64,000 nt of DNA, taken from positions 56,358,001 to 56,422,000 of the forward strand of contig NC_073386.1 in assembly GCF_028641065.1 (NCBI RefSeq), in the 5' to 3' direction. The stretch is from Leucoraja erinacea (Eukaryota). The translations under genes and the position numbers were made by a program. Shown one piece after another: positions 41,471 through 50,579 of the stretch. How positions within the stretch are numbered: position 1 is the first letter of the stretch; every line of letters begins with the position of its first letter. The notes beneath the pieces are model-generated. The model worked only from the letters and a program-made list of their open reading frames with translations, made no database searches and was not told the DNA's origin.

Positions 41471-41476
41471 TTTATT
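41471..41476 (-). terminator. Candidate polyadenylation signal for the Lhx9-alpha isoform
   Basis: AATAAA on the minus strand about 650 nt after the alpha stop codon. Confidence 0.35.
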
Positions 41477-42119
41477 ACAATTAACATCAACCAATGAAAA
41501 TGTATACATCACCCAAGAACAGTACTGACAATATTACATCCGACCCTTTGATAATTAAAAGAATTTAGAGAAAGTATTATAATGGCATGCACAATGTGTC
41601 TCAGTTTTGATTTTCAACCAGCAATACCAAAGTGTCGCCTGTGGGCTGGAAGGGCTTGCGAATTTAGACTCAAAATACCTTAACATTGATAATCCCTGTT
41701 ATAAGAATGTCGCTCATAGTCATCATAACCAAATCTCCACATTACAAATGGATATCAAATTGATTACACATTTAGAATCGTATAATACAGAAAAAGCGCT
41801 GCGTTTGATCTCCGAAAAATGGTTAATTTATCGTTCAGCTTGTCTGTGCAATGACCTGTCCTAACCGCATCCTAATTCTTTCCAATTCCAGCGCACACTT
41901 TATCTTCTCTCTACATGTATGTCCACTGATAGCTTAAAAGTAAAAAATATACAACACGTTGCGTCCTACATTAGCTTAAACATTCAAGCAAATGACATTT
42001 TGGAGTCTTATTATAGTTATGTATCTGAGTAAATTTTTAGGATATTTAATTGTGTGTTAATATAGTCTTTGTCTTCACTGATGTTGAATTCCGATCAACC
42101 TTCCCCCTTCTTAAAATAC

Positions 42120-42176
42120 CTAGGGAATTTTCAAACGTCGGGAGGTGTGGCTGTAATGCCCCAAGATTTGTTCTCC
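42120..42176 (-). CDS. lhx9: lhx9 alternative last coding exon (Lhx9-alpha/noHD C-terminus GEQILGHYSHTSRRLKIP*)
   Basis: Acceptor GATTTCTTTCAG|GGA is phase 0 and matches the exon 4 donor. The 18-aa peptide is nearly identical to the mouse Lhx9-alpha tail as I recall it (GEQILGHYSQTSRRLKIP). TAG stop at 42122-42120. Confidence 0.88.
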   Translation of the reverse strand, partial: GEQILGHYSHTSRRLKIP

Positions 42177-43341
42177 CTGAAAGAAATCATAGTAACAGTT
42201 TATTAAACTACAGAGCAACCTGTCCTTACGGGGTCTTTTTGTTATGTTTTTTAACAAGGATAATATTTCCACCATTTCGTGAAAAACTATTTTGAAAAGG
42301 TAAATCTGCATTATTTGGACTTTTGGCATTATTTTTCCCTGAATCTGTAAAGTTCCAACTGATTTAGTCCCCCCTCCCCTTTAAAACAAAACTTGTGGGC
42401 CCCTAACCCACCGGAGCAGGTTTTTTAAATTCGAAGTCATTTTGGGTCTCTCTCAATCTACGCTAACAACCTGAACTTATGTGCACGCTTGCTTCCTGAT
42501 TATCTACAGCCGTGTTTCATTTACTGCGTCAAAGCACAGTTGCTTGTTTCACCTGTGTATGTCCCTGAAACATCTGTCATTTATTTCTAAATTAAGTGGC
42601 CATTCTAGAGTCGAAAATAGACAATTGAAAAAATAGAGATCGTGGAAAAGTAATGTTGGTACAAACATACAATCTATAACCTTTGAAATAAACTCGATGT
42701 GTGGTGTATTCATTTCAGGCACTTTTTATAACATTAGTGCTTTTCTGCTTGAACTGATAAAATGTTTAGTTCCTGATTTATTCATTTTAAATGGTGTTAT
42801 GTCTCTACATTCGCCTGTTTGTATTATTACCGACATTTTCTGGTTTTCAAACGAGTTTCACGCGTAAGGTCACTCGCCCGTACACAATTCACATAGACGC
42901 AGTTCGAGGAACTTATTTGACATTATAATATAAACGCCGCATGAAATAAGGCTGAACTGAAAACGATCAAACAAACTGGTTTAATCACACACTTTTAATA
43001 AGATATCACAAACGTTTGGTCCATAAATATTTAAGGGGACAACGCGCCTGTACAGTGTATTCATGTTAAAAACAAAGTAACATCAACAATCTCATCAAAA
43101 CCACTTACTGTACTAATCATAAACACGAAAATCAACAGAAGGACCTCGAACGTACTTTGCAGTACTTAACATCGGGAATACCAACTATCCTAGTGAGACA
43201 GTGTTCATATTTGCCTTGAAGGACAAATGCAAATGCCGTTTCTTTTCTTTTCAAAAACAGTTCCCCCCCCCCCCCCCCCCAAAAAAAAAAGTTTTCAGAA
43301 AAAGAGGTAACAATACAAAACTTGTGAGGTGTCAGAAGGGA

Positions 43342-44001
43342 TTTATTGTCTCTCTCTCTCTCCAAACAAGGGAAACACGTCACAAATTTTCTTCAGTAAT
43401 ATCGTAAGGCACGTGATAAAGCTGCGATGGACCTCACTCGCTAAAAAAGATCCTGTATCATGTTCCGTTCTTCCAAAGAACGCGTGGTTTTGTTTGAATA
43501 ATCTTGGCCAGATTTATTGTATTAATGTCGGTACCGAACACATGACAATAAACGCGGATAGAGGCTGGATAGGCGGTAACTGGTGAGAGCGCATGAAATT
43601 GTCTCTGTTTAAAAAAACCCTCTCCCTAAAACACAAGCCTGCAATGCAGAGGCCTCGTTAACAAAAGGTGGGCACTTTGAGCAGAGGTGAAGAAAACAGG
43701 AGTATGTTTGTATGACCAGTGTAGAGGAAAGTGAAAGTCTGAAGGAAGATATAGTTGGAAATGGGATTATATTCCAAGCGCAGTCACCACTGCACAATCC
43801 ATTGACATTGATTTCTATTTGTGTAAACTGTTTTGTTCTCTACTGTTGTAAACTAGAATTCGTCAATAAACAAAAAATATATATATTCATATCAGTTATT
43901 TAACAAAATCATCCTACACAACAAACAGGATTTGTTTTTTTTAACTTCCCAGGGATTTTTTTTCCTCTCTCTCTCTGTTGTAAAGGAATCTGCTAAAAAT
44001 G
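43342..44001 (-). other. lhx9 full-length isoform 3' UTR (minimum likely extent) with candidate AATAAA signals
   Basis: Unique AT-rich sequence after the stop; AATAAA (minus) at 43518-43513 and 43347-43342, with further ones at 42782-42777 and 42585-42580. Confidence 0.55.
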
Positions 44002-44265
44002 TTAGAAAAGGTTCGTTAAGGTAGTTTGTGAAGGACTCCCGGATTCGTGCGCGTCCAGGTTAGTGGTCACTGACGATACTACTGACAGAGTGGGATTGGT
44101 CAAGTCTGTTAAAGTGGTCGAGGTGCTGCCCGGACTGAGTGCGGCGCCGGACCTCTCTGCTGGGGGCGGGGCGGGCAGTGCTGTCCCGTCAGCTTTATCA
44201 CCACCCCCATTCTCTTGTCGCAAAAGGTTCCTTCTGAATTTGGCTCTTGCGTTTTGAAACCAAAC
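44002..44265 (-). CDS. lhx9: lhx9 exon 5 coding part, recognition helix (VWFQNARAKFRR) and C-terminus
   Basis: Acceptor TTTGCAG|GTT; ends SPSQTTLTNLF then TAA at 44004-44002. Confidence 0.97.
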   Translation of the reverse strand, partial: VWFQNARAKFRRNLLRQENGGGDKADGTALPAPPPAERSGAALSPGSTSTTLTDLTNPTLSVVSSVTTNLDAHESGSPSQTTLTNLF

Positions 44266-47200
44266 CTGCAAACCAATCCCATGTAATCTTTTTACCGATC
44301 TTTTGATGCTTTCATCTAATCACAAACCACAAATCATTGCTATAGATAGATATAGATAGATATATAGATAGATAAATTATTTAAACAGCTAAAACTATTA
44401 ATTAAATAGATCAGCATTAAATGGTCTGGGGTGCCATTGTGATATTAAAAAAACACTTAATACCATTGACTGGCCCACACAATGCTAGTTCATAACAATG
44501 GCACACATATAAAACTATTTTACCTAACGAGTTAGGAACTATAATTCTTAAAACTTAAAATGAGTTTATTCAAGCCCTATGTTGCATCCACCAGTATTCT
44601 AGCGTGGGAGGAAGTGGTGAAGGCTCTCGGTGAGTTATTTACCCCGATACCCCCCCCCCCCCCCCCCCCCTCCCTCCCCCCCCCTCCCTCCCTCCCTCCA
44701 CCCCTCCCTACCGCCTCTCTCAACTCCATGGCCCAAGAAAGTACTCCACGGCGCGGCTGCCACACGGGAGTTTATTTACCAACCATCCCAATCTCAACGA
44801 CTACCCCCCGTTTAGCCAAATGCAGCAAGTTGTAGAGATCCTACCGACTATCTACGATCAGTTAACTTTGGGAAATTAATTAAGAATGAGAGGCGTGAGC
44901 CGGTTGGAAATGCAATTTGTTCTAATGGTTAGCAAGATGGGCGAATTGTCATTTTGGGTAAGGTCTAAAATCCTTGGATTAACTCTCAGTTCTGGGTTGT
45001 GTATTCAGCGCCTAAGTCTGCAAGTGTTCATCCTATCTTGGTGTTTAAGAAGGAACTGCAGATGCTGGAAAATCGAAGGTACACAAAAATGCTGGAGAAA
45101 CTCAGCGGGTGCAGCAGCATCTATGGAGCGATGTGCTGCTGCACCCGCTGAGTTTCTCCAGCATTTTTGTGTACATCCTATCTTGGTGTTCAGTCCACCA
45201 TCCCTCAGTGCAACAAGACCGATCAAACCGGGACTTACGCCACGACAATGTTATTAATGGGACATATATTTGAAAGCGGATGAAACATAGATGCTCTCTA
45301 TACCACCCCCCTCCTTAAGCATTTGGGTTCTTGTTTTAATGTATCTGGCGCTCCCGGACGTTACTCTGTTAATGTGTCAGTACTTTGCAATTTAAAAAAG
45401 TTATCTTCTTGGTGATTACAGAACATTAAGGAAGGGAGCGGGGAAACTAGGGTTAAAATCTCCTTTGTAAATAGGAACGCGTCTTACCTGCAAAACTCTT
45501 TTGGTGAGCCCAGTTTTCTGAGCGAGTTGCTTTAAGTCTTTCGCGTCTGGGTTGTGGTTTATGGCGAAGTAGGACTTCATGGTGCGGAGCTGGTGGTGCT
45601 TGAAGGAGGTGCGCATTCGCTTGGTTTTCTGGGTCGGCGGGTAGGACTGTTGTTCCCTGTCCAAGTGGTCAGCGTCGTTCTCATTGCAGCCTAGGACGCA
45701 GAAACAGAAGCGCGCTGTGTGTTAATTGCCGCTCCCACTGAGCTCCCGCTCGCCGCTCTATCAGTTGCTGCCTGCACTAGGTGGCGCTAACTCCCCATCC
45801 TTCACCACTGGGTTCCATATCATGAGATAGTTGTAATCCATATAAATTATGGTAGAGTTTGTGTTTGCCACATAATGCCTGGGATATTGGTTAAACCCCT
45901 CTTTCTACTCTTCCTAAGGCTCCCAGATCAACCAAGCTCTCAGGAATTTTGATATTTTGGCAATCTCTCCTCAAAATATTACATTACAAATAACATGCAA
46001 AGATGGCCTTGTGCTTTGTGCGGAGTGACATGTTTTCGTACTAAACCCATGGGAGGAATCAATTTCGTTAAGTACGTTTGCTGCATTTCATTTAACTGTG
46101 TGCGATCACCGCCGGTTAAGGTTCTAATGGCGGAAACGCAATCTGATCACTACATTAAATAATTGTTGATCGCTATTTGGTATTACGTGCAGCTATACTT
46201 TTTAATTCAGTGGCCTTACTAGCAAATGCAAGATGATGCCATATTTGGAAAACTCGTTTGCTTCCCATAATGTTAATGCATTCAATGAAAGAACTTTCTT
46301 AAAATTACACATCAAACTACACATTAAATTTTTTTTTAAAGTGGATACCACACTTCCAAAAAATAGCGTATCACGTTTAAATAAATGGTTTGAGTTATTG
46401 CAAGCTTAGTGAGATTTTATTTTCGGTCACATATAATTTTACAGTGACATTAACTGTTCGTCTCACTCTGCATCAGAGTAATTTCAAAGCAAGTCTAATC
46501 TTCCGATTCTAGCTCGATCTCTTGTAAAAGGCACAGATAACTGGCGCAGCTAAGGGATCTTTCTAGCTACAGAGGCACCGGGCGCAGTTTCATTAAAAAA
46601 AACTTAAGCAACCAACTTCCCCGTTTTGAGTTTTTAAAAAGTGTGGCCTTATATCTAAACCAAGTCAGATAGTACGGGCAACGAGTGGACCGAGTGCTCC
46701 CTGACTTCTACGATTAATTTATGTTTCATTAAACGGCTTTCCTGAGTTTCATTTTAGCCCATTTTAATTTTAATTGGACATGCATGGTAAATGGTTGGAA
46801 TTTGCAATTACATACGCAAAGGTTAGCATTAACAATCTAATGCTATATTTGCAAATCCATTATGAAAGTATTAAGAATCTCCAACAAAGTCACTATTAAA
46901 AAAATACTGCCTATTTATAAAATGTCTAACTGCCCACAAAGAAATTGTGTTTTTACATTGTTTATTTGTCCATTCTGTGCAAAACCAACCGTCTATCTAC
47001 ACAAAGTACTGAAATACCAGCTATGCAAAGTGGTTTTACACGGTATGAACAAAAACGCTTTTCTTGCTGTCAAATACACTCTAATACGAAATGAATGAAC
47101 ATTTAAAGACGTATTAATTGGCATTAGGCGAAAATGAATGATAACTCCAAAGGGGTAGACCAATGAGTATCTACAATTGTGGTCCTTTAAGTTACGGTAC

Positions 47201-50200
47201 ATTTTGAGCTGGCAGGGTGATTTATGCGTGACTGGGAAACCAGGGATTCCGATGTCACGTCTAATTAACACGAAACAATTAACCTCCACATTACGTGATT
47301 CTCCTTCCATTCATTTGAACATCAAATTCTAGTGTGCGCGCCAAACGGCTTTGAAGAAGAATCGCAATTAAGAAATACCTAGAAAGGAACACAATGGGCG
47401 AGTGTATAATTGGGTCCAGTGTGTGGAAAGACTATAAAGCCCTTATTTCATTTTTTGGGCGGAATATATAAAATCATGTTCACTCGTGCTAACGAAAAAT
47501 AGAATCGTGCAGAGAGTTTCCGAGACAACAGAGTGTAGAGAATTAACGTGTAAGATTCTATCACATAAAGAAAGCAAATACCTTGGGAGGTTTGCCAACG
47601 AGAAACTGATACGGTTAACAAGGGCTCCACTTGTAGGAATATTTGTGTTTCACGAGGCATTTCTATGATGCCAGGTATTTTAAAAACAAAACAGGCGTTT
47701 CTAAATCTTTGCACTTTTTTCAGTAACACATTCGAACTTAGTATCTTTGAAATGTTATATGGTGATTTGCGAACTCATTTGGAAATAAGCACTAGTATTG
47801 TTATTTTTTTGTTTATTACATGTTATCTACGAGTACTGTGTTTACAAGCTGGTTAAGATGCTGCAAGTTTAAAAAAAATCATTGTTCCGTTGTCAATACA
47901 CACGACTTTCCCCCTCTCTCTTGACCTTGGTCGTTATAAACCAGGGCGATTTTAAAAGTCGAATGAAATGTTTGATTTGTAGATGTACTGTATTACCTGG
48001 CGCCCGGGATATCATACCATCTTTAACACTTCCTTCGTTACTCTAATATTTCTAACGCATGGTTTTCTTTAAGAACGTTGCCTTAGCCCACCTTGGTTGT
48101 AAGTTGGGATGTCAACTCCTAGGGCAGGGCTTTTTCTTTTCCGGGGCCGGCCTTTCTGCACGGTGCCTGTCCCGTTGAAATAAGGTAATCCGAGGCCCCC
48201 GCTCTTTGCAGCGAGCTCCGTGTAGTTCAGTTGCGTGTGATAATCACTCTGCACCAGCGACTCGAAGTGAACTCTGCAGTAGACCAGGTTATCTTTCATG
48301 CCAAAGTGATCGCCCGTGGTTAATGTTTTGTTGCAAGTCATACACGTGAAACAACTCAAATGATAGACCGAGTCCCTGGCACGCATAACCATTTCAGAAG
48401 CAGAGATCCCGAGGTGGCAGCGGGAGCAGCGTTGCACAGAAAATCTCCTGTGAAAAAAAAACAAAAGGCACAAACTTTAGAAATAGGTGCATTGGATTAA
48501 AACGCATCACCAACCTCACAACTCAGAAGAACCACAATAAAGTGTGTGCTGTTACATTTTTGATCTCACAATATTTTAACTACTGATTTCAACTATTCCT
48601 GTTCATTTAAGGAACGTCACCACATGGTCTATAGACTCGAGTCGGTTTTATACACGCTAATAATTTTGTTCCATGTTATTTTCTGCATAAATAGTCCCTT
48701 GTTCGTGCGCGTGTTAAGGACGGGTTGAATAGCGAATTCACCAGTTAGTGTGTAAGTTTAGCTATGGGGACAAGGTAGGATCTTTCCTCTCTCTAATTGT
48801 ATTGCCCACATTTTTCACAGTCGCTCTTAAAAATCCGACAGGTCCAATCAGGAAAACCACGTCAGATTATGAGGCTAGATTCAGTTCAATCTTATTGACA
48901 ATCATATCATATGAACTTTAGGCCAACATGAGCCCAAATGCGTTCCCTTGTAAATGCGATGGTGTCTCAATCCCACAATTAAAGGAGTGTAGTAAACTCA
49001 TTCGTGTTCCAAGATGCTCGATCGCACCCTGGAATTCCACTGAGTTCGTTTCATTACAGCAAAGGCCAACTCTGAACAGCACAACTGACGCACAATTTTG
49101 GTGTACAATTAGCAAACAAAGAGCAGGGTTGGGGGTTATACATAGCTGCCCCCTCCATCAGGGCCAATAAGAGGCCTACAACAAAGAGAGTGAAAAGCAC
49201 AGCTCTCCCCGTCAAACGGCCCGCGAGCATTTCACCTCTGCTTTCAACGGCAAAGCCTCATTGACGCGGTTGTTCTGTCGGTGACCGCGCTAACTCGCCC
49301 AATCTGGTTAAATGTAAAGAAATAACAACCAGTTGGCGGGATGCAGATCTGAACTGATGGGCAATTGGCTTCAATGGAAAATGTAGAATGCAGCAGAGAA
49401 AGGCCGCACACTCCTGAGGCCGGGCTAAGCGGGGAGATGGTCATCTTGACGTGCAGGATAATTTCACCCCGTTTACTTTCAGCAGCCGTACCTGTAGTAA
49501 TCTTCCTTGCAGTAAATGCTGCCGTCCTTGGCGAAGCAAGTGAGTTCGGACTCCAGGGCCAGCTTGCATTCGCAGCACTTGAGACATCTGAGGTGCCACT
49601 GTTTGTCCACTGCCAGTAAGTAATAGCGGTCGGCGATTTTACCGCCGCAGCCGGCGCACAGGGCGGGTTTATCAGAATTAATAGAAGGCATCGCCTGCAA
49701 GCAGAAATTTCAAAAGGCGGTTAATGTCAAGTCGAAACGTCACCCTGAACAAATGTGAACACAGGGCTAATAAACACGAAGCGAACAGAGCCAAAGTCCG
49801 GCCATTACAAGACTTTTGTATGCAGCGGCATTTATGCTTCATTCGCTGTAGCCGTTAGGTGTATTTTACATAATGCAACACAGGATTATACAAACTAAAT
49901 ATTATTCGCAATTATTCAAACAAATCTTACTGGCAGACATTTGAATAAAGTGTCATTTCCTCTGGCGAATTGCAGTCCGATTGTAAATACAATTTCCCAT
50001 TCGGGATTACTAAAAACGGTAAATTGGCAAATTTATTGATACTTAATTCATTGGTTGCAAAGTACTTGTTATTGGATCTGTGCGGGGCAATTATCCCACA
50101 GGGTAATGGGCTGTGTAAATTCACAAGGCGCTCTGTGTATTTTTCCTGCTATAATTTGAGTTTATATTTATAACTTTATTCACCAAAGCCAACCGGCCAA

Positions 50201-50579
50201 AGGGACGCGCAGATTGGTTTTGTCGCTGCCATTTGTTACCATTTTTTAAAACTGTTCTTACATTGAATGTCACAGATTTTTTTTTAAGAGAAAAATTCCG
50301 CTTAGCGGGGTCCCTCACCAAGCCGCCGTTTGGAAAGGTAAAGGTAGTCAAGGAATTGTCCGCGTTTCAAAAATGAACATGTCTCTCCGTTGTTTTCGTT
50401 CTTACCGTTTCCCTTCCGTTCATCTGAACCCCTTTCGCGATGCGCCCATCCGTCTTGGACCTCCGTTCCATCTCCTCCATAATCCCCTGGATCTCGCCCC
50501 CAGAGATGCCGTGGAAAAGCATTGCTGATTGACGGAAAGTGCACGTGTCTTCCGCGGACCTTGCTCTGAGTACTTCCAT
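44002..50579 (-). CDS. lhx9: LIM/homeobox protein Lhx9, full-length isoform; join(50406..50579,49492..49694,48092..48447,45488..45690,44002..44265), 399 aa
   Basis: Exons of 174+203+356+203+264 = 1200 nt splice in frame at canonical GT-AG sites. The protein has the MLFHGISGG N-terminus, two LIM domains, a homeodomain and the SPSQTTLTNLF C-terminus. The linker (YTELAAKSGGLGLPYFNGTGTVQKGRPRKRKSPALG) is Lhx9-type rather than Lhx2-type. Confidence 0.97.
45046..45173. mobile_element. Young palindromic hammerhead-family element in lhx9 intron 4 with 17-bp flanking duplication
   Basis: CATCCTATCTTGGTGTT at 45029-45045 and 45174-45190; perfect 41-bp inverted repeat at 45079-45119 and 45134-45174. 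Confidence 0.88.
45488..45690 (-). CDS. lhx9: lhx9 exon 4, homeodomain N-terminal arm and helices 1-2
   Basis: Acceptor GTCCTAG|GC, phase-0 donor CAG|GTAAGA; encodes TKRMRTSFKHHQLRTMKSYFAINHNPDAKDLKQLAQKTGLTKRVLQ. Confidence 0.97.
45771..45789 (+). promoter_or_regulatory. Candidate CTCF site in lhx9 intron 3
   Basis: CCTGCACTAGGTGGCGCTA closely matches the CTCF core CCAC(C/T)AG(G/A)(G/T)GGCGC. Confidence 0.5.
48092..48447 (-). CDS. lhx9: lhx9 exon 3, LIM domain 2 and basic linker
   Basis: Acceptor TTTTTTCACAG|G, donor AAG|GTGGGC; encodes CSRCHLGISASEMVMRARDSVYHLSCFTC...YCRVHF and KGRPRKRK. Confidence 0.97.
49492..49694 (-). CDS. lhx9: lhx9 exon 2, LIM domain 1
   Basis: Acceptor TTGCAG|GCG, donor CAG|GTACGG; encodes CAGCGGKIADRYYLLAVDKQWHLRCLKCCECKLALESELTCFAKDGSIYCKEDYY. 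Confidence 0.97.
50406..50579 (-). CDS. lhx9: lhx9 coding exon 1 (MEVLRARSAEDTCTFRQSAMLFHGISGG...MNGRET), 58 aa
   Basis: ATG at 50579; donor ACG|GTAAG at 50406/50405; peptide resembles the vertebrate Lhx9 N-terminus. Confidence 0.93.

What the first reader, a model, noticed from the sequence alone, without database searches (positions are those of the whole stretch)
42120..42176. Intact Lhx9-alpha (homeodomain-truncated) alternative last exon in a cartilaginous fish
Seen: about 1.8 kb past the normal stop there is a strong phase-0 acceptor (GATTTCTTTCAG|) followed by GEQILGHYSHTSRRLKIP-stop. Joining exon 4 to it gives a 330-aa protein with both LIM domains but no WFQN recognition helix. Known: mouse Lhx9-alpha ends in nearly the same peptide (recalled as GEQILGHYSQTSRRLKIP), does not bind DNA normally and can still engage LDB/CLIM cofactors. 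Inference: this isoform switch predates the split of cartilaginous and bony fishes, and the near-invariant 18-aa tail probably has a function of its own rather than being a passive truncation.
Basis: partly seen in the sequence, partly recalled or inferred. Interest (0 to 1): 0.72.

Follow-up and report, generated by a model that had tools for sequence, protein, structure and literature searches.

The report
Skate Lhx9-alpha short ending
This skate's Lhx9 developmental gene carries the same alternative short ending already known from mice, chickens and bony fish and already annotated in sharks; it likely makes a form that cannot bind DNA, so the finding is real but mostly known, although a decayed look-alike beside the sister gene Lhx2 suggests the switch is older still.

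Summary
Confirmed. The gene is skate lhx9 (398/399 residues as Amblyraja Lhx9). A phase-0 exon at 42176-42120, 1,826 bases past the normal stop, gives a 330-aa form without the recognition helix; its tail matches mouse at 17/18, score 88 against 20 for the next of 1,794 acceptors. Contig breaks in one run of a related species fit only a three-way splice at the exon-4 donor; the junction itself was not seen. It is known: PMC9310833 reports the tail in mammals, birds, reptiles and fish and already suggests a function for it, and public models of seven cartilaginous fishes, chimaera included, hold it. The tail is as conserved as LIM2, but its function stays untested and DNA-level constraint is not excluded. 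This scan earlier noted an alpha-like exon at lhx2 in a shark; I found a decayed one 4.6 kb past skate lhx2, with a different 15-aa tail. So the truncation switch likely predates the Lhx2/Lhx9 duplication, and the fixed tail is Lhx9-specific.

The parts
50406..50579 (-). lhx9 coding exon 1 (ATG at 50579)
   Evidence: 58 of 58 residues as Amblyraja Lhx9 P0124
49492..49694 (-). exon 2, LIM1
48092..48447 (-). exon 3, LIM2 and linker with a basic RPRKRK stretch
45488..45690 (-). exon 4, homeodomain helices 1-2 and first turn of helix 3; phase-0 donor shared by both last exons
   Evidence: contig depth 285.6 against 10.8 and 5.85 in flanking introns in run X8
44002..44265 (-). normal last exon (coding part): WFQN recognition helix and C-terminus; weak acceptor (5 of 11 pyrimidines)
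42585..43518 (-). span holding four AATAAA (43518, 43347, 42782, 42585): candidate poly(A) signals of the normal form, which must be passed over to reach the alpha exon (inferred)
   Evidence: use not tested
42177..42206 (-). alpha acceptor: branch-point-like TTAAT at 42206-42202, overlapping an AATAAA at 42204-42199, 29 AG-free bases, pyrimidine run, CAG
   Evidence: the acceptor aligns with the lhx2 look-alike
42120..42176 (-). Lhx9-alpha alternative last exon, coding part: 18 residues and TAG
   Evidence: same tail in public models of sharks, a ray, a chimaera, sturgeon and teleosts
41471..42050 (-). likely alpha 3' UTR, with ATTAAA at 42050 and AATAAA at 41476 as candidate poly(A) signals
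   Evidence: 3' end not determined

Best explanation
The segment 42176-42120 is the skate copy of the Lhx9-alpha alternative last exon; the exon-4 donor is likely spliced either to the near, pyrimidine-poor exon 5 (399-aa DNA-binding form) or to this far acceptor (330-aa form), whose product keeps both LIM domains, loses the recognition helix and likely works as a non-DNA-binding adaptor in LDB/LIM complexes. Shown: exon anatomy, frame, orthology, a third splice exit from exon 4 in one run of a related species. Inferred: that this exit is the alpha exon; that the choice rests on a weak near acceptor plus read-through of the normal poly(A) signals; that the cut homeodomain is unfolded. From papers: mouse Lhx9-alpha is translated, fails to bind a LIM-HD site, binds ISL1, and did not act as a plain dominant negative. 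The truncation is likely the ancestral purpose (a decayed look-alike sits at lhx2); the 18-residue tail became fixed only in Lhx9 and probably adds a short linear motif at its basic end.
For: Intact frame and 17/18 match, score 88 against 20. Same tail in 44 database proteins from cartilaginous fishes to mammals; mean identity of the tail 92.7%, LIM2 94.1%, linker 80.5%, N-terminus 69.7%. Run X8 (related species, 5 differences in 206 nt): pieces 45487-45692, 45486-45516 (31 nt), an intron piece ending at 45515 and one starting at 45663; a k=31 graph gives exactly these four ends only with three exits (intron, exon 5, alpha), not with either pair; lhx2 reads cannot cause it (10 mismatches in the last 40 nt). 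Depths 285.6, 50 and 10.8 suggest, roughly, that most exits take the non-GT path. Acceptor pyrimidines 8/11 (alpha) against 5/11 (exon 5), the same pattern at lhx2. AlphaFold2 with 42-row alignments: homeodomain three-helical at block pLDDT 57-78 in the normal form, one helix and 30-42 in the alpha form. PMC9310833 and PMC2447832. lhx2 look-alike: DNA score 60, 0 of 200 shuffles reach it (max 36); best of 6,036 acceptors for the first six residues.
Against: No read or contig across 45488-42176 was seen; the third exit is defined only as 'G then not T' and another exon could supply it (a Carcharodon model has another ending, P0149). It rests on one run, of another species, that the tool marks 'probably DNA', and contig depth is a poor measure of level. 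Both AlphaFold models are of low overall confidence (mean pLDDT 40.8 and 44.4). The database tails are gene-model predictions, and the set of 44 was picked by its last five residues. No binding or DNA assay exists for the skate protein. The lhx2 homology is gapped: the exon part alone is not significant (14 of 200 shuffles), blastn at E 0.001 missed it, and an unrelated acceptor near the third paralogue scores 19 against its 20.
Confidence: 0.82

Rival explanations
1. The tail peptide is the main thing under selection: an 18-residue docking motif (for LIM domains, like the ISL1 LIM-binding domain, or for another partner) gives Lhx9-alpha a function of its own.
For: Length and frame are fixed in 44 records and 12 of 18 positions never vary; three frog clusters change five residues in the first half but keep length and the basic end. 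PMC9310833 raises the ISL1 analogy and cites an assay in which Lhx9-alpha promoted neural differentiation rather than blocking it.
Against: The lhx2 look-alike keeps the acceptor but reads a different 15-aa peptide. The tail has no predicted structure (pLDDT about 30) and no Atlas look-alike above 0.78. The invariance of the last five residues is partly built into my selection.
Confidence: 0.35
2. The 57 nt are conserved as DNA or RNA (splicing or poly(A) control, or an enhancer); the peptide is a passenger and only the truncation matters.
For: Compared by eye, the mouse primer in PMC9310833 Table 2 matches the skate exon at 24 of 24 nt and the chicken primer at 23 of 24, the one change being non-synonymous; the mouse reverse primer in PMC2447832 matches at 21 of 22: 15 of 16 third positions are the same. 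Skate lhx9 and lhx2 share only 19 of 48 synonymous codons in the homeobox exon. An AATAAA overlaps the branch point.
Against: The control, the mouse exon-5 primer, also matches the skate at 21 of 22 nt, so this gene is slow at synonymous sites elsewhere too; frogs changed five residues yet kept frame, length and the basic end. No stable fold at the acceptor (z -0.5 to 0.7).
Confidence: 0.3
3. The exon is silent in skates: a conserved non-coding element or part of a long 3' UTR of the normal form, never joined to exon 4.
For: The junction was not seen directly; no skate alpha model was among the cluster members listed (15 of 27 and 15 of 24 shown).
Against: Three-way split at the exon-4 donor in run X8; intact acceptor and frame; alpha models in seven other cartilaginous fishes.
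Confidence: 0.05

Closest known systems
Lhx9-alpha / Lhx9a and Lhx9b (Lhx9ab) of mouse and chicken (PMC9310833; PMC2447832; Failli 2000 and Molle 2004 known only through these papers)
   Same: 330 aa, both LIM domains, homeodomain cut after KRVLQ, 18-aa tail 17/18 identical to rodent
   Different: Cartilaginous fish host; His for Gln at tail position 10; no protein, expression or binding data for the skate
Public gene models of Lhx9 short isoforms in Hemiscyllium, Scyliorhinus canicula, S. torazame, Heptranchias, Carcharodon, Narcine and Callorhinchus (P0135, P0136, P0140, P0141, P0148, P0151, P0145, P0170)
   Same: Same junction and tail: 5 of 8 records 18/18, 3 of 8 17/18; 315-321 of 330 residues for the full-length ones
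   Different: Predictions, not discussed in any paper that my six searches found; none listed was from a skate
LIM-only proteins (LMO2, LMO4) and Drosophila dLMO/Beadex as titrators of LDB/Chip (the latter recalled)
   Same: Two LIM domains, no working DNA-binding domain; LIM match to LMO4-LDB1 and LMO2 structures
   Different: Made by splicing from a LIM-HD gene, keeps linker, helices 1-2 and a conserved tail; dominant-negative action not shown for mouse Lhx9-alpha
ISL1/ISL2 LIM-binding domain C-terminal to the homeodomain (PDB 2rgt, 3mmk fusions)
   Same: A short conserved stretch after the homeodomain in a LIM-HD protein
   Different: No sequence or structural likeness was shown here for the Lhx9-alpha tail

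Membership tests
Lhx9-alpha (Lhx9ab) isoform | Host gene is Lhx9, not Lhx2 | tested here: met
   398/399 to Amblyraja Lhx9; separate lhx2 at G000:C31 (86-92% to Mobula Lhx2). The tree did not resolve Lhx2 from Lhx9 clades, so this rests on identity.
Lhx9-alpha (Lhx9ab) isoform | Alternative last exon downstream of the normal one, joined in phase 0 after KRVLQ | tested here: met
Lhx9-alpha (Lhx9ab) isoform | 18-aa alpha tail and stop; 330 aa in all | tested here: met
   17/18 to rodent, 18/18 to sturgeon and five cartilaginous-fish records
Lhx9-alpha (Lhx9ab) isoform | Exon 4 is spliced to this exon in RNA | tested here: inconclusive
   three-way contig split in one run of a relative fits; junction letters not seen
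Lhx9-alpha (Lhx9ab) isoform | Translated; does not bind the LIM-HD site; binds LDB1/ISL1 | not testable with these tools
   shown or cited for mouse and chicken only; helix 3 is absent in sequence
LIM-only (LMO) proteins | Gene that encodes LIM domains only, no homeobox | tested here: not met
   splice form of a LIM-homeobox gene, keeps helices 1-2; it may still work like an LMO
LIM-interaction-domain peptides (LDB1-LID, ISL1-LBD) | Extended peptide that zips onto tandem LIM domains | tested here: inconclusive
   tail unstructured in a low-confidence monomer model; no likeness shown in the PDB search

The most novel reading that the evidence does not exclude
The recognition-helix-removing last exon arose once in the single Lhx2/9 gene before the vertebrate genome duplications. 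Cartilaginous fishes keep it at both lhx9 and lhx2; only the Lhx9 copy froze its 18-residue tail into a docking motif, and in some skate tissues this non-DNA-binding form is the main product of the gene.
Probability: 0.35. Interest if true: 0.55.

Novelty: already known. Interest (0 to 1): 0.27.

Why it matters
The function of Lhx9-alpha is an open question (PMC9310833 says so). Its presence in skates, sharks and chimaera dates the tail to the ancestor of jawed vertebrates, which public annotation already implied. The more useful point is the natural experiment in the same genome: lhx9 with a frozen tail, lhx2 with a likely homologous exon whose peptide has drifted, and a third paralogue with none. 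That separates 'truncation matters' from 'tail matters' and contradicts the published statement that the ending is confined to Lhx9, if the lhx2 exon proves to be spliced.

Tried and rejected
RNA: no RNA holder listed on record; raw-read runs X22 and X24 gave 0 reads on exon 4 (about 1% and 5% of each run read; no test), and X1 gave one intronic contig. The alpha exon itself was not covered by any lay, so the junction letters and the 3' end stay open. Complex prediction of LIM1-LIM2 (64-194) with the tail (298-330) of P0141: no verdict, score 0.01, alignments not used. Atlas search of the tail: best 0.78, homeodomain cluster, a lead only. Peptide searches for an alpha exon at lhx2 with the whole tail found nothing; that negative was wrong-footed by the early stop and indels and was overturned by DNA alignment. 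No alpha-like exon in 33 kb below the third paralogue (best DNA score 29). Hairpin masking of the lhx9 alpha acceptor: no support (z -0.5 to 0.7). Tree: long branches, Lhx2 and Lhx9 not resolved. No lamprey or hagfish name among 48 hits or the 120 of 313 listed: weak, annotation-limited. dN/dS could not be run: no orthologous DNA is served. The GT right after the alpha stop as a further donor, and the tail as a replacement nuclear signal (the linker already has RPRKRK), were considered and left untested. Failli 2000, Tandon 2016 not held.

Full report
Observation. The minus strand holds a complete LIM-homeobox gene: exons 50579-50406, 49694-49492, 48447-48092, 45690-45488 and a last exon 44265-44002, 399 aa without internal stop. 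The product matches Amblyraja radiata Lhx9 at 398 of 399 and Rhinoraja Lhx9 at 394, so the host is a skate and the gene is lhx9; lhx2 and a third relative lie on other contigs. At 1,826 bases past the stop a CAG acceptor opens 18 codons and TAG (42176-42120); joined to exon 4 it gives 330 aa that end after the first turn of helix 3, without WFQN. Of 1,794 AG-acceptor peptides in the 45.5 kb below the donor this scores 88 (17/18) against a rodent alpha tail, the next 20.

What is known. PMC9310833 (parts 1, 2, 4 and 5 of 6 read, plus term look-ups) prints the mouse tail, reports it by BLAST in mammals, birds, fish and reptiles, shows the protein in mouse and chick embryos, says that no other LIM-HD gene has this ending, and suggests that the tail may have a function of its own. 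'Shark' and 'cartilaginous' occur 0 times in its main text, but the species list is in Figure 3A, which I could not see. PMC2447832 (passages and Discussion) shows the 330-aa mouse form as the cardiac form and its co-precipitation with ISL1. Failure to bind DNA and the lack of a dominant-negative effect are cited in PMC9310833 from Molle 2004, which I did not see. PMC13715784 (three passages) adds nothing on isoforms. Six searches listed no paper on this isoform in cartilaginous fishes or on an Lhx2 alpha form; subscription journals are not covered and no supplements were read.

Range. Public protein records already hold the short form in seven cartilaginous species (eight records: Hemiscyllium, two Scyliorhinus, Heptranchias, Carcharodon, Narcine, Callorhinchus twice); five are 18/18 and three 17/18 to the window tail. 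In all 44 records ended in RLKIP: 9 ray-finned fishes (17-18/18), 3 frog clusters (13/18), 10 turtles, crocodile and birds (16-17), 14 mammals (16-17), 8 cartilaginous. Dropped before the count: P0172, which stops four residues early, and unrelated read-through endings. Only 120 of 313 hits and 15 members a cluster were listed. In the 42-row alignment the tail is 92.7% identical to the shark row, against 96.6 (LIM1), 94.1 (LIM2), 97.7 (helices 1-2), 80.5 (linker) and 69.7 (N-terminus); the normal C-terminus keeps 45-59 of 72 residues in seven bony vertebrates.

Splicing. Of four runs laid on exon 4, only X8 (a related species, 5 differences in 206 nt) covered it. The tool marks it 'probably DNA', yet the exon contig has depth 285.6 against 10.8 and 5.85 in the introns and breaks at both splice sites, as RNA would. 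Its pieces are 45487-45692, a single 31-mer 45486-45516 (depth 50), an intron piece ending at 45515 and one starting at 45663. Intron and exon 5 both begin GT, the alpha exon G and another base. A k=31 graph reproduces all four ends only with three exits; intron plus exon 5 gives a 207-nt piece and no 31-mer. lhx2 cannot be the source (10 mismatches in the last 40 nt). Taken at face value about four fifths of the depth leaves by the non-GT path, but contig depth is crude, this is one run, and the letters of the third path were not seen.

Mechanism. The normal exon-5 acceptor is the poorest of the gene (5 of 11 pyrimidines; 8-10 for exons 2-4; 8 for alpha), and lhx2 shows the same 5 against 8. 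Four AATAAA lie between the two last exons and a fifth overlaps the branch-point-like TTAAT 27 bases before the alpha exon. I infer an alternative-last-exon switch set by a weak near acceptor and by competition with cleavage. No stable RNA fold covers the acceptor. In matched AlphaFold2 runs the homeodomain forms three helices at block pLDDT 57-78 in the normal form and one helix at 30-42 in the alpha form (both models poor overall, means 44.4 and 40.8), which fits loss of the Trp-Phe core of helix 3 (established homeodomain knowledge). The LIM pair matches LHX3, ISL1 and LMO structures solved with LDB1 or ISL peptides. The product therefore likely acts as a LIM adaptor that changes the make-up of LDB complexes without binding DNA.

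Does the tail work by itself? For: fixed length and frame, 12 invariant positions, frogs that changed five residues but kept the basic end. Against: compared by eye, mouse and chicken primers from the two papers match the skate exon at 24/24, 23/24 and 21/22 nt, 15 of 16 third positions the same, whereas skate lhx9 and lhx2 share 19 of 48 synonymous codons; but the exon-5 control primer also matches at 21/22, so the test does not decide. I give peptide function 0.35 as the main constraint, nucleotide constraint 0.3.

The paralogues. My whole-tail scans found nothing at lhx2. It has a CAG acceptor and reads VEQVLGSIETAISSI-stop, the best of 6,036 acceptors for the first six residues; another frame holds HLKCP. 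The segment is not a repeat, though repeats flank it. Against: the exon part alone is reached by 14 of 200 shuffles, blastn missed it, and a chance acceptor near the third paralogue scores 19 against 20; I have no RNA for it. I put the homology at about 0.75. No such exon was found in 33 kb below the third paralogue.

Verdict. Real, orthologous and very probably spliced, but already known as an isoform and already annotated in sharks and chimaera. The added value is modest: indirect RNA support in a relative, the weak-near-acceptor anatomy, and a second species for an lhx2 look-alike that this scan had noted on other DNA.

Noticed in passing
G000:C31 8589121-8589021 (L007:9022-9122), minus strand: Decayed alpha-like exon 4.6 kb past the skate lhx2 stop: CAG acceptor, 15-aa frame VEQVLGSIETAISSI, DNA score 60 against at most 36 in shuffles. 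Splicing not tested.
   Followed up: partly
G000:C446 about 59600-71650, plus strand (L012, L010, L011): A third, fast-evolving Lhx2/9 paralogue. Its relatives are annotated 'Lhx2-like' or 'Lhx9-like' in sharks, rays, lungfish, coelacanth, bichir, sturgeons and a newt (18 hits) and form one clade at 100/100; likely a further ohnologue lost in amniotes and teleosts (none among the 18 hits; weak).
   Followed up: partly
G000:C31 8593976-8593926 (lhx2 last exon): An in-frame CAG 51 nt into lhx2 exon 5 would delete the 17 residues of helix 3; such models exist for Heterodontus, Pristiophorus, Alosa and Scleropages (P0082, P0088, P0111, P0185). lhx9 has only a GAG there. A second route to a helix-less form.
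   Followed up: partly
window 42204-42199, minus strand: An AATAAA overlaps the branch-point-like TTAAT of the alpha acceptor; cleavage there would cut at the acceptor. The lhx2 look-alike keeps TTAAT but not AATAAA.
   Followed up: no
window 42119-42114, minus strand: The alpha stop codon is followed at once by GTATTT, a possible donor; the exon might not always be terminal.
   Followed up: no
P0061, P0062, P0064: Frog clusters (51, 25 and 28 members) carry an alpha tail changed at five positions but of the same length and basic end: a natural mutant for testing the tail.
   Followed up: no
window 45041-45177: A short repeat in inverted orientation inside intron 4, with many copies near lhx2 as well; ordinary mobile-element remains.
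   Followed up: no
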